From NCBI GenBank assembly GCA_951406725.2, contig OX597828.1, positions 49,972,001-50,036,000 on the forward strand: 64,000 nucleotides of DNA, read 5' to 3'. The stretch's first letter is position 1, and every line of letters starts with the position of its first letter. The notes under the pieces are model-generated. The model was not told where the DNA came from, did no database searches, and was given only the letters and a program-made list of their open reading frames with translations. This document shows, one piece after another, positions 1,329 through 59,330 of this stretch. The stretch comes from Octopus vulgaris. Lineage: Eukaryota. The translations under genes were made by a program, and so were the position numbers.

Positions 1329-1784
1329 TGTTCTGTATTTAAGAGATGAGGAATTATGTACATTATTTACATTCGATGGATATTTGTCCTCATCTTGTTT
1401 GCTGTTAACACAACGTTTCGGCTGATATACTCTCCAGCCTTCATCAGGTGTCTTGGGGAAATTTCGAACCTGGGTTCTCATTCCTAAGGTATTTTTCGAT
1501 GTTGTTGTTATTATCATTATTATTATTATTATTATTATTATTATGCCCACGTGCATATGGCGTAGTGGTTAAGAGCGTGGGCTACTAACCCCAAGATTCC
1601 AAGTTTGATTCCAGGCTGTGACCTGAATAATAATAATAATAATAACATCGAAAAATAACTTAGGAATGAGAACCCAGGTTCAAAATTTCCCCAAGACACC
1701 TGATGAAGGCAGGAGGGTATATCAGCCGAAACGTATTAACAACAAACAAGATGAGGACAAATATCCGTCAAATGTAAATAATGT
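1329..1784. mobile_element. Penelope-like short element in inverted (head-to-head) arrangement, with a tRNA-like head and hammerhead motifs
   Basis: About 1360-1500 is the reverse complement of about 1645-1784; A box TGGCGTAGTGG (1558-1568) and B box GTTTGATTCC (1603-1612); inserted in a family C SINE with CTTTACATTC duplicated on both sides. Confidence 0.75.
1407..1452 (-). ncRNA. Minimal type I hammerhead ribozyme motif
   Basis: GACAC-CUGAUGA-A-GGCUG(gagaguauau)CAGCC-GAAA-CG-UU-GUGUU: intact core, 5-bp stem II, palindromic ACGU stem III, stem I GACAC/GUGUU. Confidence 0.7.
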
Positions 1785-3509
1785 CTTTACATTCAAATGT
1801 CACCAAGGTCAACTTTGCCTTTCATCCTTTTGGGTTCGATAATACGAAGTACCTGACAAGTACTGGTGGTGGTGGTGGGGGGGGGGGTCAATGTAATTAA
1901 CTTACTCCCTCCCATCAAAAATTGCTGGCCTTGTTGTTGTTGTTGTTGTTGCTGCTGTTGTTTGGACATTGAGCTGGCAGAATCCTACCAAGGTTAACTT
2001 TCACTTTCCACCTTTGCACCTGTCAAAAGATACTAATATTAAGACTGTAATTAAAGCAGCAAGCTGGTAGAACTCTTAGCATAGTTGGCAAAATGCTTAG
2101 TAGCATCTTGCCTGACTTTATGTTCTGGGTTCAAATTCCAGCCTTTCAGTTAAACACTAGGGTTGATGTAATCAACTTACACCCTCCCCTAGAACTTCTG
2201 GCTTTGGACCAAAAATAGAAACTAGTATTATTATTATTATTGTGGCAGAGGAGCTTTGGTACAGAGAGTAAGCAAACTAACCTCAAATCCTCCCTACAGT
2301 ACCACTTGCTTAGTATTTGTGGGTTTTGAGTTCAAACCTTACTAGGTTTACCACCTTAACTTTTAATCTGTCTTAGGATTAGTGAAATGTGTAAGTGGCT
2401 GGAGATGCTTCCATTAATTATACTGTCTAGCTTAATCACCATAGCAACTGGAGTCTGGTAAGAGACTGTCACCAGCAGACTTACCAGATACCTTGTGGTG
2501 TTTAGTTTACATGGTTTATTGTATTGAATGTCGTCAGAGTTTGATAATACCTTTCTTAGCTTGGGATGGGGGTGGAATGTTCATAAAATGAGTATCAGTA
2601 ATATACCGGGGGTTGGGGTATATTGGAACAACTATATTCACTTAAATGTGTTCCATACTTGATCAAAGAAATCATAATTCATCCTTTTGGGGTCGATGAT
2701 ATAAGTACCAGTTGAGTACAGGGTCGGAGGGGGGGGGGGTTTAATTAACTAGCCTCCTCCCCCAAATTTCAGGCCTTTTGTCTATAGCAGAAGTTATTAT
2801 TATTATAACATACCATGTAAAAGCAAAAGAAGTTGTTCTTGTTGTTGTCTACTAGTACAAGTTGTGGTAGTAGTGAGTGTCACAGCGCAAGAAGTATGTT
2901 GAGAGAAATGTGGTTTTCGATACAAATTGAAGCCACTCCATTTATGCCTTTAGGGATGGACATGAACATCACAACTCTTCATTTCCTCTCCTCACCAGTG
3001 TAAGGCCTTAAGGTATATTATTTACCAATATAATAGTAATGTCTGTGAGCTGTTGGTACCATGTAAAAGCTGTGGAGTGTTTGTGACATGTCCCTTAATT
3101 CCCTTCATATGTCTGTCTTTGGAAAAGGCTGAATTGTCACACAGTTTCCTGGTTCTCTCTAAAACTTGTAAGACATCAATATTTTGGATTCCTTTGTTAG
3201 TAATAAAACTCACAGAAATTATTCTGCAACAAGTTTTTTTCTTTTTACATTTTTTTTTTTTGTTCCCTACAAAATCTTAAACGTTTTAGAACAAACTTTC
3301 TTTCCCAGTGGAGTTATCTGCCCCTTTACAATTCGTGAATTGATCAGTATTATAATTCATGGTTGCATCTACCTTGCTTCCTACATGTTATCATGCACAT
3401 TACAACATCCGTGTTTATTCATTTATTTTATTTCCTAAGTAAGAAATGGGTTTTAGTTTGATAAAATGTCTTACTTTTTTTAATATGACTTTGTGACATT
3501 TTTTTTTCC

Positions 3510-3690
3510 AACCCTTTAGCAAGTCAGATTATTTTGTCTAATGTAATGCTTATTTATTCACAGTTTTGAATTACTCATGCATTATCTCTTTGCATCGAGA
3601 TTATGCTGATGTACTTGTTTATTTTTAGTATGATATTGTAGGGTAGGTGTGAGAAGCTGAATATGGCCAGTTTAAATTCTAATGGGTTAA
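3510..3690. mobile_element. piggyBac-like MITE family (TTAA-CCCTTTAGC...GCTAAAGGG-TTAA); other copies at about 24859-25067, 29068-29240, 29570-29737 and 40069-40790 (split)
   Basis: Dispersed shared body (CAGATTACTCTGTCAAAT...GACATTGTAGGGTAGG) with CCC/GGG termini at TTAA-like sites. Confidence 0.65.
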
Positions 3691-56118: not shown

Positions 56119-58505
56119 TAAGGTACATAATAATCACACATACAAACATTCAAATACTTCCTTTGTACACGCACACACATACCCACATATACTTACACAG
56201 AGTTGAAACACTGATTTTTTTTCACCCCTTCCTTTCTCTCATTTCTCTTCTCCTTCACTGAATTACTATTTTCTCACCTCCTCCACGTCCAGTGTGATTC
56301 TAGACAAATATATAGAAACAGTTCACTCATTATTATATTAGGAGATATGAATAGATCAGATTAATGACTGTGATTTATAAATGGAAACCTACAAAGGTAT
56401 TAAGTACCTTTTTTTTTTTAATCTCTTACCCACCTTTCACTTGATTCAGTCATTTGACTGCAGCCATGCTGGGGCACCACATTAAAAGGTTTTAGTTGAA
56501 TGAATTAATCCTATGACTTATTTTTGTTTTTTAAGCCTGTTACTTAATCTATCGGTCTCTTTTGCTGAACTGTAAAGTTACTGGGATGTAAACCAACCAA
56601 CACTGGTTGTCAAGTGGTGGTGAGGGACACACATACACACACAGACACACATAGATATATAGGCGCAGGTGTGGCTGTGTAGTAAAGAAGTTTGCTTCCC
56701 AATCACATGGTTCTAGGTTCAGTCCCATTGCATGGCACCTTGGGCAAGTGTCTTCTACTATAGCCTTGGGCAGTCTAAAGCCTTGTGAGTGGATTTGGTA
56801 GACAGAAACTCAAAGAAGACCATAATATATGTATATATATATATATATATATATATATATATATATATATATATTATAATACAAATAAGAAAATCGAGAA
56901 AGAAATTTAGTTTGTTCATCAACTTACTGGGATGTAAACCAACTAACACTGGTTGTCAAGTGGTGGTGAGGGACACACATACACACACAGACACGCATAG
57001 ATATATAGGTGCAGGAGTGGCTGTGTGGTAAGTAGCTTGCTTACCAACCACATGGTTCCGGGTTCAGTCCCACTGCGTGGCACCTTGGGCCAGTGTCTTC
57101 TACTATGGCCTCGGGCCGACCAAAGCCTTGTGAGTGGATTTGGTAGACGGAAACTGAAAGAAGCCCGTCGTATATATGTATATATATATGTGTGTGTTTG
57201 TGTCTGTGTTTATCCCCCCAACATCGCTTGACAACCGATGCTGGTGTGTTTACATCCCCGTAACTTAGCGGTTTGGCAAAAGAGACCGATAGAATAAGTA
57301 CTAGGCTTACAAAGAATAAGTTCTGGGGTCGATGTGCTCGACTAAAGACGGTGCTCCAGCATGGCCACAGTCAAATGACTGAAACAAGTAAAAGAGTAAA
57401 AAGAGATATTATAATGTTAGATTATTTATTCATTTTACAAATGGGAACATCAAAAGCATACAAAAATATTATATAAATCAATAGATAAGATAATAATACA
57501 AATACAGATTTATGTGTGTGTATGTATGTATATATTTATGTGTGTGAGTCTTTGTGTCTGCGTCCATGCTGGAGCACCGCCTTTAGTTGGGCAACTCAAC
57601 CCCAGGACTTATTCTTTGTAAGCCTAGTACTTATTCTATCAGTCTCTCTTGCCGAACCGCTAAGTTATGGGGACATAAACATACCAGCATCGGTTGTCAA
57701 GCGATGTTGGGGGGGCAAACACACACACACACGCATATATATATATATATGTATATATACATATATATGACGAGCTTCTTTCAGTTTCTGTCTACCAAAT
57801 CCACTCACAAGTCTTTGGTTGGTCCAAGGCTATAGTAGAAGACACTTGCCCAAGGAACCATGCCGTGGGACTGAACCTGGAACCATGTGGTTGATAAACA
57901 AGCTACTTACCACACAGCCACTCCTGCGCCTATATATATATAGAGAGAGAGAGACATCAAGCTTTATTCAGTTTCTGTCTACAAAATCCACTCACAAGGC
58001 ATTGGTTGGCCCAGGGCTATAGTAGGAGACACCTGCCTAGGGTGGTATGCAGTAGGACTAACTCAGAACCATGTGGTTGGGAAACAAGCTCCTTACCACA
58101 CAGCCACTCCTATGTCTATGTGAATCAATTCAAAGAAACTGTGTCAAATAAGTCCTATTTTTTCAATAGTTTTTTGTACAAAAATACGTTCTCCTCTTTT
58201 ACGATACTGACTTTGACTCCAATATCTTACTTTTATATATGTTCCTAATATTCAAAGAAATTAAATATAAACCTGAGAAATGCATGTCTCAGTGGTATTT
58301 GACATTATTGACATGCAGTAAACTATTTAGTCTGGTTTGCTTCAGTGACATTTCAGCTGGACTGGCAGCAGAACCACGAAGTTGGTTGGACCATAACAAT
58401 AGTTTTTGACAAATAATACCTCTTTTTGTATTCCATTATGTGAAATAGTCAAGCATTTCTTAACGACAAAGGAAATTAAATAACACAGCCATTGATAAAA
58501 TGTTG

Positions 58506-58892
58506 GGATCTTTTAAACTTCGTATACTGGTAGAATGTGTTTATAAAACATCTTTTTCTCTTGGCTTTATTGAGAAAATTCTATAGTTTGTAAGATATTT
58601 GTTGTTTTTTTTCTTCAATTTCTGCAATTTCAACCAATCAATGACATCTATTGAGGTAATAAACATTCTGTGCCATATGAATATGTCCCTCGTTTAAGAA
58701 ACAGATTGGGTTTATTTACATTTCTGAAGAAAAAAAGATACCCTTCCCCCCACCCCCAACCCTAACTAACCCTAACCAATCCTAACCCTAAAACAGATTG
58801 AAATGCAATAGATCGATACTAGGGTCATAATTATGGGTGACAATTTCATATGACACCGCTAGAAAAAACTGCATTTCAAACCAAAAAGATCC
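58506..58892. mobile_element. MITE with an 8-bp TSD and internal (TAACCC)n-like repeats
   Basis: TIR GGATCTTTT / AAAAGATCC; TSD AAATGTTG / AAATGTTA; CCCTAA repeats at about 58755-58790. Confidence 0.7.
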
Positions 58893-59330
58893 AAATGTTA
58901 AAATCTTAATGCAAAGATTTCAGTCACGTATAGTATAATTTCATATTTATTTAAAACTACAAACTCATGGTTTTGTAGATTGCTCTTTTGAATGTTTGCA
59001 TATTCTAAAACAAATCAAAGTCTTCCTTTTTCATTAATCATTCATCTATGAAGTGAGTGGGTTAGTGCTGAGCTAATTTTGTACGTTCAGAGTTAATGAA
59101 TGGAGGTATTGAAGCATTTAATAAATGAAGATATGTATGCAAAAGAATTTAACAAAAGAAGGTATGTGACGTCTGGGGAGAGTCATTTTCTTTTTGTGCC
59201 TTATAATGTAACACACTCACCGGTAAAATTTCAACTTATTTCTTATTTTTATTTTCCTAAAATTTTCATTGCGTCTTGCAACCTTTTCAATAGACTTGAG
59301 AGTCAAGACTATTGCAAAGGTTGCGAGACC

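What the first reader, a model, noticed from the sequence alone, without database searches (positions are those of the whole stretch)
1407..59330. Six loci with hammerhead-ribozyme architecture from several Penelope-like short-repeat families in one 64-kb window
Seen: motifs with the order stem I - CUGANGA - stem II - GAAA - stem III - NUH - stem I' at 1407-1452(-) with a damaged partner at 1695-1737(+), 4883-4933(-) with 4945-4991(+), 18929-19069(-), 38262-38297(-), 45030-45067(+) and 59257-59293(-). Stem sequences differ between families yet still pair, which argues against chance. Established: Penelope-like retroelements carry minimal type I HHRs with palindromic stem III that act as dimers, and often insert with an inverted truncated arm. 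Inference: this genome hosts a diverse, abundant population of small non-autonomous ribozyme-bearing retroelements (retrozyme-like) that standard annotation would label unknown repeats.
Basis: partly seen in the sequence, partly recalled or inferred. Interest (0 to 1): 0.8.

Follow-up and report, generated by a model that had tools for sequence, protein, structure and literature searches.

The report
Octopus Penelope-type hammerhead repeat families
This stretch of octopus DNA holds several mostly decayed self-cutting "hammerhead" RNA motifs in the ends of Penelope-type jumping elements, a known kind; one insertion also carries a tRNA-like promoter, hinting at a short element that borrows Penelope machinery.

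Summary
The motifs are real but mostly damaged. Only 1407-1452 and 59257 are whole; 38262 and 45030 alone score within chance. An intact-core copy at 50581-50660 was missed. Scores of 20 or more: 6 observed, 0.86 expected, reached by 0 of 100 shuffles.

The surroundings are Penelope-like (PLE): head-to-head inverted arms at 4 loci, one-sided tails at 2, and an 11-bp target duplication at 1318/1784. Two families lie about 10^4 to 10^5-fold deeper than unique flanks in 3 of 3 probable DNA runs. Protein hits place family A in Octopus. This is the known PLE minimal-hammerhead class. It fails the tandem-array test for retrozymes. No autonomous partner was found and cleavage is untested.

The unusual part: insertion A has a Pol III A/B-box head between its arms, inside the target duplication. 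That suggests a PLE-mobilised SINE, which I did not find in 9 searches. It rests on one copy.

The parts
1318..1328 (+). Left copy of the 11-bp target-site duplication of insertion A, inside a host SINE
   Evidence: identical to 1784-1794; the joined flanks align continuously to other host-SINE copies (e.g. 15151-15277)
1330..1359 (-). About 30-nt 3' tail, on the inverted arm of A only (PLE tail signature)
   Evidence: arm alignment; loose ends at 1330 in 312 (X1) and 337 (X15) contigs; the tail also reads through in an Octopus bimaculoides protein record
1360..1544 (-). Inverted, 5'-truncated arm of A: (AAT)n, body, hammerhead, 3' part
   Evidence: 132 of 140 aligned letters identical to the + arm
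1407..1452 (-). Intact minimal type I hammerhead (predicted cut after 1412), palindromic 4-nt stem III, extra A after position 9
   Evidence: top score; stems I and II form in the MFE fold
1545..1626 (+). tRNA-like head with Pol III A box (1558-1568) and B box (1603-1611), 34 nt apart; proposed 5' end of the full-length copy
   Evidence: 1 of 5 A/B pairs in the window (shuffle mean 0.47); no other copy in the window; no Rfam tRNA match
1627..1783 (+). Forward arm of A: (AAT)n, body, damaged hammerhead 1695-1737 (stem I 3' strand deleted), 3' part without tail
   Evidence: loose ends at 1784 in 382 contigs (X12)
1784..1794 (+). Right copy of the 11-bp target-site duplication of A
4799..4867 (-). 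About 65-nt extension (tail) on the minus arm of B only, ending in (TA)n
4868..5008 (.). B: head-to-head palindrome (1-nt spacer at 4939) of two hammerhead-bearing stubs, 4883-4933(-) with A9G and 4945-4991(+) without stem II; hairpin stem III; in (TA)n
   Evidence: (64 of 66 aligned letters identical); depth
18719..19085 (-). C minus arm: hammerhead 18929-19069 (exact core, 112-nt stem-loop II, 8-nt palindrome, stem I 2 nt out of register) and about 210 nt of 3' part ending at (TA)n
19117..19165 (+). C inverted arm, first piece, starting at the GAAA box; followed by SINE insertions
   Evidence: 94% complementary over 49 nt
19953..20129 (+). Probable rest of the C inverted arm; it begins where the first piece stops
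   Evidence: C positions 154-202 and 202-378; about 160 nt between them are unexplained
38219..38647 (-). D: solo repeat end with a damaged hammerhead-like motif at 38262-38297 (U4C, G12A); (TA)n at its 5' side
   Evidence: related to E; no PLE protein hit for the upstream frame
44964..45162 (+). E: solo repeat end with a damaged hammerhead-like motif at 45030-45067 (U4A, A6U; palindromic stem III)
50508..50723 (+).
   Evidence: (second-best score)
59161..59329 (.). F: minus arm with a U3-A8 covariant hammerhead at 59256-59294, and a short head-to-head arm 59303-59329 cut off by a mariner fragment; left end approximate
   Evidence: mariner (Transposase_1, E 9e-16)

Best explanation
These are 3' ends of several Penelope-like retroelement (PLE) lineages in an octopus genome, each carrying the minimal type I hammerhead typical of PLE terminal repeats. 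Mechanism, inferred from published PLE work: a PLE reverse transcriptase/GIY-YIG endonuclease binds the RNA's 3' region, nicks AT-rich or microsatellite DNA and starts reverse transcription at one of two internal sites. The result is two head-to-head copies of different length, one with the extra tail, inside a target duplication. The hammerhead needs a partner (palindromic stem III) or protein help to cut, and most genomic copies have decayed. Family A is most likely a short non-autonomous element: a Pol III (tRNA-like) head drives a roughly 270-nt RNA whose 3' end is a PLE end. Shown here: motifs, arms, tails, target duplication, A/B boxes, high depth. Inferred: PLE mobilisation, Pol III transcription, dimer cleavage.
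For: Motif excess over shuffles. Head-to-head arms at 4 of the 7 loci (A, B, C, F). One-sided tails at A (30 nt) and B (about 65 nt), matching the PLE signature in PMC8557442 and PMC11167929. 11-bp target duplication with a clean empty site at A. (TA)n neighbours at B, C, D and G. Min-HHR hallmarks from PMC4209133: extra base after position 9 in 5 of 9 motifs, palindromic stem III in 6 of 9, G10.1-C11.1 in 5 of 9, and the U3-A8 variant at F. Summed contig depth in X1 was 4.2 million on the A minus arm and 0.59 million on B, against 62-97 on unique bins, with the same pattern in X12 and X15 and contig edges piling at 1330 and 1784. Family A copies occur in O. bimaculoides and O. sinensis protein records. 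PLEs make up 6.83% of O. vulgaris in 190 families. A/B boxes lie inside the target duplication at the centre of A.
Against: No RT or GIY-YIG sequence was linked to any locus: the frame upstream of D found 1 unrelated protein, and the A-arm frame found no PLE protein. Rfam hammerhead models do not match. D and E score within or near the chance range. Family-wide conservation of the core was not seen, because the letters inside the repeats were among the rows not shown. B has no convincing stem II and a non-palindromic stem III. The head was skipped, has no Rfam tRNA match and found no protein-level relative.
Confidence: 0.82

Rival explanations
1. All loci are just 5'-truncated ends of autonomous PLEs. 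The tRNA-like head in A is a one-off: either an independent small SINE that landed later between the arms, or a single chimeric transcript.
For: PMC4209133 reads most single motifs as truncated PLEs. The head has only one copy in the window and its depth was not measured. D runs about 350 nt upstream of its motif, as a truncated longer element would.
Against: The head sits exactly at the junction of the two arms, has no direct repeat of its own at its junctions, lies inside the outer 11-bp duplication and points into the forward arm. Both arms start in the same (AAT)n. The A-arm frame hit no autonomous PLE protein (weak evidence).
Confidence: 0.35
2. They are non-LTR retrozymes: tandem units that self-cleave, circularise and spread through circular RNA; the window shows only dispersed monomers.
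For: Retrozymes carry type I hammerheads, are 150-450 nt long, can have target duplications longer than 4 bp, occur as evenly spread monomers, and derive from PLE terminal repeats.
Against: No head-to-tail unit at any of the 7 loci. The pairs are inverted with a one-sided tail, the PLE target-primed pattern. The hammerheads are minimal, not the classical type I form described for retrozymes (PMC7229834 abstract).
Confidence: 0.12
3. Family A is an ordinary LINE-dependent tRNA SINE, or the short palindromes (B, F) are MITE-like DNA elements, and the hammerhead-like motifs are incidental relics.
For: A has a SINE-like head and a target duplication of LINE-like length. B and F are short palindromes in TA-rich sites. 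Relaxed motifs are common by chance (104 against 91 at score >=10).
Against: A ends without a simple-repeat tail and has an inverted arm with a one-sided extension. B's arms meet head to head with a 1-nt spacer and only one arm has the extension, unlike terminal inverted repeats. The A and G motifs exceed 100 of 100 shuffles.
Confidence: 0.06

Closest known systems
Minimal hammerheads (min-HHR) in the terminal repeats of metazoan Penelope-like elements (Cervera and de la Pena 2014, PMC4209133; parts 1-2 of 4 read)
   Same: Type I, short stem I, extra base after position 9, palindromic stem III, U3-A8 variant, many heterogeneous families per genome, mostly single motifs, some pairs 100-700 bp apart on opposite strands.
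   Different: Host is an octopus, which my searches did not show reported for these motifs (235 Rfam hammerhead-1 hits are reported for giant squid). No link to a PLE ORF shown here. C and G have unusually long stem-loops II; B has a hairpin stem III; A has a Pol III head.
PLE insertion structure and mechanism (PMC8557442 passages; Poseidon of Anolis, PMC11167929 parts 1-2 of 4)
   Same: Inverted 5'-truncated copy adjacent to the 5' end, 30-40 bp tail at one end, preference for AT-rich and microsatellite targets.
   Different: Here the units are 150-480 bp with no ORF seen; B's extension is about 65 nt.
Schistosoma Sm-alpha / Sj-alpha SINE-like hammerhead retroposons (as summarised in PMC6765202, passages; primary papers not read)
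   Same: Pol III promoter followed by a hammerhead in a short non-coding repeat.
   Different: Sm-alpha often forms tandem repeats that the ribozyme cuts into monomers, and its ribozyme is canonical (recalled). Family A here is dispersed, has a minimal dimer-type ribozyme, and shows the PLE inverted-arm and tail signature.
Metazoan non-LTR retrozymes (PMC7229834 passages; bioRxiv 10.64898/2026.07.22.740005 parts 1-3 of 5, supplements not seen)
   Same: Short, non-coding, type I hammerhead, derived from PLE terminal repeats, proposed PLE mobilisation.
   Different: Defined by head-to-tail arrays and circular RNA; neither is seen here.
tRNA-derived SINEs (SINEBase definition, PMC3531059 passages)
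   Same: Under 700 bp, internal A/B boxes, high copy number, target duplication (family A).
   Different: By that definition the partner is a LINE and the 3' end is a simple-repeat tail; here the 3' end looks like a PLE end.

Membership tests
PLE minimal hammerheads | Type I core boxes CUGANGA (or U3-A8), GAAA and UH with helices I and II | tested here: met
   Whole at A-, F- and G+; boxes exact in 6 of 9 motifs (A-, A+, B+, C-, F-, G+)
PLE minimal hammerheads | Palindromic positions 15.2-16.2 / stem III (dimer type) | tested here: met
   6 of 9 motifs (A-, A+, C, E, F, G); D broken by one change; the 2 B motifs have a hairpin
PLE minimal hammerheads | Unpaired base between positions 9 and 10.1, and a G10.1-C11.1 pair | tested here: met
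   Extra base in 5 of 9; G-C in 5 of 9, G-U in 2, none in B
PLE minimal hammerheads | Located in the terminal repeat of an RT plus GIY-YIG element | tested here: inconclusive
   No PLE protein found next to or matching A or D; no genome held; the window was not scanned whole at protein level
PLE minimal hammerheads | Consensus families with conserved core and covarying stems | tested here: inconclusive
   High depth for A and B, but letters within the repeats not displayed; 2 octopus protein records read through the core region with changes, one of them compatible with N7 only
PLE minimal hammerheads | Self-cleavage as a dimer or with protein help | not testable with these tools
   Folding only: stem III self-duplex -10.3 kcal/mol for G, -1.7 for A and E, positive for F and D
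Penelope-like element insertions | Inverted 5'-truncated copy at the 5' end | tested here: met
   4 of 7 loci (A, B, C, F)
Penelope-like element insertions | 30-40 bp tail at one end only | tested here: met
   A 30 nt; B about 65 nt; not seen at C; not assessable at F or the solo loci
Penelope-like element insertions | Target duplication or AT-rich / microsatellite target | tested here: met
   11-bp duplication at A; (TA)n at B, C, D, G
Non-LTR retrozymes | At least two consecutive head-to-tail units, each with a hammerhead | tested here: not met
   0 of 7 loci in this window; rest of the genome not available
Non-LTR retrozymes | Abundant linear and circular monomer RNAs | not testable with these tools
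   Only assembled contigs were available
tRNA-derived SINE (family A) | Under 700 bp with an internal Pol III promoter (A and B boxes) | tested here: met
   About 240-270 nt; A box 0 and B box 1 mismatch, 34 nt apart (box consensus recalled). One copy only
tRNA-derived SINE (family A) | Head homologous to a tRNA | tested here: inconclusive
   No ARAGORN or Rfam tRNA match; 40-44 identities in 75-78 columns to the four other A/B-box heads
tRNA-derived SINE (family A) | Head shared by the copies of the family | tested here: inconclusive
   Region skipped as a repeat; no hit
tRNA-derived SINE (family A) | LINE partner and 3' simple-repeat tail | tested here: not met
   Neither arm ends in a simple repeat; the ends abut the target duplication. 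The partner was not identified
Sm-alpha-type SINE-like hammerhead retroposons | Pol III promoter followed by a hammerhead | tested here: met
   Locus A
Sm-alpha-type SINE-like hammerhead retroposons | Tandem multimers processed by the ribozyme | tested here: not met
   Inverted, not tandem, at A

The most novel reading that the evidence does not exclude
Family A is a tRNA-headed, Pol III-transcribed SINE whose 3' end is a Penelope terminal repeat with a minimal hammerhead, and which is copied by a Penelope-like element rather than a LINE. It would be a SINE class with a PLE partner, amplified to tens of thousands of copies across Octopus species and not described so far. Its roughly 270-nt RNA would define the minimal signals for PLE mobilisation in trans.
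Probability: 0.42. Interest if true: 0.68.

Novelty: new member of a known kind. Interest (0 to 1): 0.42.

Why it matters
As given, the finding adds octopus to the many animals whose genomes are strewn with PLE minimal hammerheads, which is expected. It would matter more if the Pol III head of family A proves family-wide. SINEs are defined as LINE-dependent, and a short PLE-dependent element with its own promoter would extend that rule. It would also give a compact natural substrate for two open questions: what the PLE protein recognises in trans, and whether the hammerhead is needed, since it was dispensable for insertion in vitro (PMC11167929). It would help classify part of the many unclassified SINEs in octopus annotations (893 of 900 recently active SINE families unclassified in PMC13282606).

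Tried and rejected
No whole genome was held, so no genome-wide count or family alignment was possible.

Rfam: no hammerhead or tRNA match; only microsatellite- and hairpin-driven miRNA matches below gathering score, or weak chance matches.

Pattern scans for relatives: 118 metagenome loci, none a family A relative by BLASTN beyond one 24-nt match; 0 hits in viral contigs and 0 in prokaryotic genomes.

Autonomous partner: the frame upstream of D has a few residues that reminded me of a PLE endonuclease end, but Pfam gave nothing and the profile-free search returned 1 unrelated low-complexity protein, so I do not claim it. The A-arm frame found 3 protein clusters, none a PLE protein. The antisense frame across head and body found nothing; this is weak either way.

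A whole-window Pfam scan for RT or GIY-YIG remnants did not run; only 9 short frames were scanned.

Expression: no RNA holder listed on record. Run X4 is only guessed to be RNA and holds contigs, so it says nothing on transcription or cleavage. No empty-site allele of A could be told from host-SINE joints.

Lack of a T4 terminator in the sense strand of A is weak: 705 of 2552 windows of that length also lack one.

Descriptor hits at 44406 and 36051 were inspected and set aside as probable chance; the other hits at 18 or below outside the listed loci were not inspected.

Lunse et al. 2017 is not held; I saw it only as cited in PMC6765202.

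
Full report
Setting. The window is 38% G+C, rich in microsatellites and SINE-like repeats, with UDPGP-family exons on the minus strand. No genome is held. A reading frame across one arm of the first repeat matches protein records of Octopus sinensis (89% identity over 71% of the query) and O. 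bimaculoides (88% over all of it), so the host is an octopus. I did not determine the species.

Checking the observation. All 8 motifs are at the stated places. A scored descriptor gave 2 hits at 24 or more, with none in 100 local dinucleotide shuffles, and 4 hits at 18 or more against a mean of 0.56. Allowing the U3-A8 core pair and a stem I offset gave 6 hits at 20 or more against 0.86 (0 of 100 shuffles reach 6), 13 against 7.96 at 16 (3 of 100) and 104 against 91 at 10 (11 of 100). I chose the scoring after seeing the motifs. So the best motifs are beyond chance, while 38262 and 45030 stand mainly on their likeness to each other (73% over 75 nt) and to the class. The motif at 59257 is not CUGANGA as stated but the U3-A8 covariant, reported as natural in PMC4209133 and as active in vitro in PMC3088659. 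Rfam's hammerhead models match none of them.

Anatomy. Locus A (1318-1794) is a complete insertion. An 11-bp direct repeat flanks it, and joining the flanks restores a continuous host SINE. Inside lie, in order: a 30-nt tail and an inverted arm (1330-1544), an 82-nt unique segment (1545-1626), and a forward arm without the tail (1627-1783). The arms agree at 132 of 140 aligned letters. The middle segment carries a Pol III A box and B box 34 nt apart. The window has 5 such pairs against 0.47 in shuffles, or 0.0003 expected for a given 82-nt strand; of the other 4 heads, each has further copies in the window. This one points into the forward arm, has no duplication of its own and no second copy in the window. 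ARAGORN and Rfam do not call it a tRNA.

Locus B is a head-to-head palindrome with a 1-nt spacer and a roughly 65-nt extension on one arm, set in (TA)n. Its stem III is a hairpin, not a palindrome, and stem II is weak or missing. Locus C has an inverted arm in two complementary pieces separated by SINEs and about 160 unexplained bases. Locus F has a short inverted arm cut by a mariner fragment. D, E and G are solo; G lies between two (TA)n tracts. None of the 7 loci is a head-to-tail array.

Abundance. Contigs of 4 runs were laid on 1250-5100 at 80% likeness. In X1 the summed depth was 4.2 million on the A minus arm, 1.4 million on the plus arm and 0.59 million on B, against 62-97 on the lowest unique bins. 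X12 and X15, two other organism labels, show the same pattern. The tool warns that this is not a copy number; I read it only as 10^4 to 10^5-fold for A and about 10^4-fold for B. Loose contig ends pile at 1330 (312 and 337 contigs) and 1784 (382 contigs), the boundaries given by the target duplication. The stretch 1494-1655 was skipped as a repeat, so the head was not tested, and the variant letters inside the repeats were among rows not shown.

How it most likely works. PLE insertions are typically 5'-truncated, often have an inverted truncated copy at the 5' end, and carry a 30-40 bp tail at one end (PMC8557442, passages). In vitro the Anolis Poseidon protein nicks AT-rich DNA and starts reverse transcription at two internal sites that delimit the tail; its hammerhead cuts only with protein and is not needed for insertion (PMC11167929). 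A and B show this geometry, C and F the inverted arm. The motifs carry the min-HHR hallmarks of PMC4209133: extra base after position 9 in 5 of 9, palindromic stem III in 6 of 9, G10.1-C11.1 in 5 of 9. Because the arms lie on opposite strands, a transcript carries only one sense hammerhead, and read-through RNA folds into one long hairpin (-270 kcal/mol for A). A dimer partner must therefore come from another molecule or a tandem master copy. A Pol III transcript starting at the A head would avoid the hairpin. These mechanistic steps are inference; cleavage, transcription and the partner enzyme are not shown.

What did not support the reading. No autonomous PLE was linked: the frame upstream of D gave no Pfam family and 1 unrelated hit among 1.84 billion proteins, and the A frame gave no PLE protein. 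Collection scans gave no family relatives. A search with the frame across head and body gave nothing. A whole-window protein scan did not run.

Comparison with the known. The class is established: thousands of heterogeneous min-HHRs per animal genome, mostly single, some in opposite-strand pairs. PLEs are 6.83% of O. vulgaris in 190 families, and that paper's supplement does not mention hammerheads. The giant squid paper lists 235 Rfam hammerhead-1 hits. Retrozymes are defined by tandem units, a test these loci fail, though a 2026 preprint derives retrozymes from PLE ends. [quoted passage not shown] A Pol III promoter followed by a hammerhead is known from schistosome SINE-like repeats, often in tandem (PMC6765202). 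SINEBase defines SINEs as LINE-dependent. I found no description of a tRNA-headed element with a PLE end, nor of octopus PLE hammerheads, in 9 searches. Most hits were seen only as listings and abstract starts. The library lacks most subscription journals, Repbase, Dfam, the Zenodo library of PMC13282606 and the preprint's supplements, any of which may already list these families. An earlier AI note describes the same kind of head-to-head stubs in another genome (e1-7788996); I did not test it.

Verdict. Observation partly confirmed; interpretation partly supported. Overall a new member of a known kind, interest 0.42. The most novel reading left open is a PLE-mobilised tRNA SINE (family A), probability about 0.42, interest 0.68 if true. 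It rests on one well-structured copy and can be settled by one BLAST against an octopus assembly.

Noticed in passing
window 1329-1481(-); proteins P0003, P0006, P0008: Three O. sinensis isoform models of one gene (LOC115224785) begin with about 37 residues read from family A, across the hammerhead. The O. vulgaris model of the same cluster (P0007, partial) lacks them. Possible exonisation or annotation artefact.
   Followed up: partly
window 25425-39489(-): Exons of a UDPGP-family gene (Pfam hits at 25425-25742 and 29792-30124), probably UDP-N-acetylhexosamine pyrophosphorylase (name recalled). Locus D lies on the same strand between the presumed first exons.
   Followed up: partly
window 59330-59700(-) and 63354-63980(+): Decayed Tc1/mariner fragments; the first abuts the short arm of F (Transposase_1, E 9e-16); the second was judged only from its translation.
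   Followed up: partly
window 56864-56926 and 57405-57511(-): A third copy of the C 3' part, without the hammerhead, split by a SINE.
   Followed up: partly
L016:533-900: An unrelated metagenome contig holds head-to-head arms with a very similar minimal hammerhead directly after a peptide that resembles a Penelope endonuclease C-terminus (motif recalled; no Pfam hit).
   Followed up: partly
window 44849-44975: A roughly 100-bp palindromic MITE-like insert just upstream of E, framed by an 11-nt inverted repeat that may be the remnant of a head-to-head centre.
   Followed up: no
window 52772-53628: A young tandem array of about 104/210-bp units (97-99% matches) built from SINE fragments.
   Followed up: no
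window 35124-35930(-): LINE-like (probably RTE-type, recalled) reverse-transcriptase fragment with a PHD finger hit.
   Followed up: no
window 55533-55670: A long hairpin (inverted repeat) that scores weakly against a plant miRNA model; probably another palindromic repeat.
   Followed up: no
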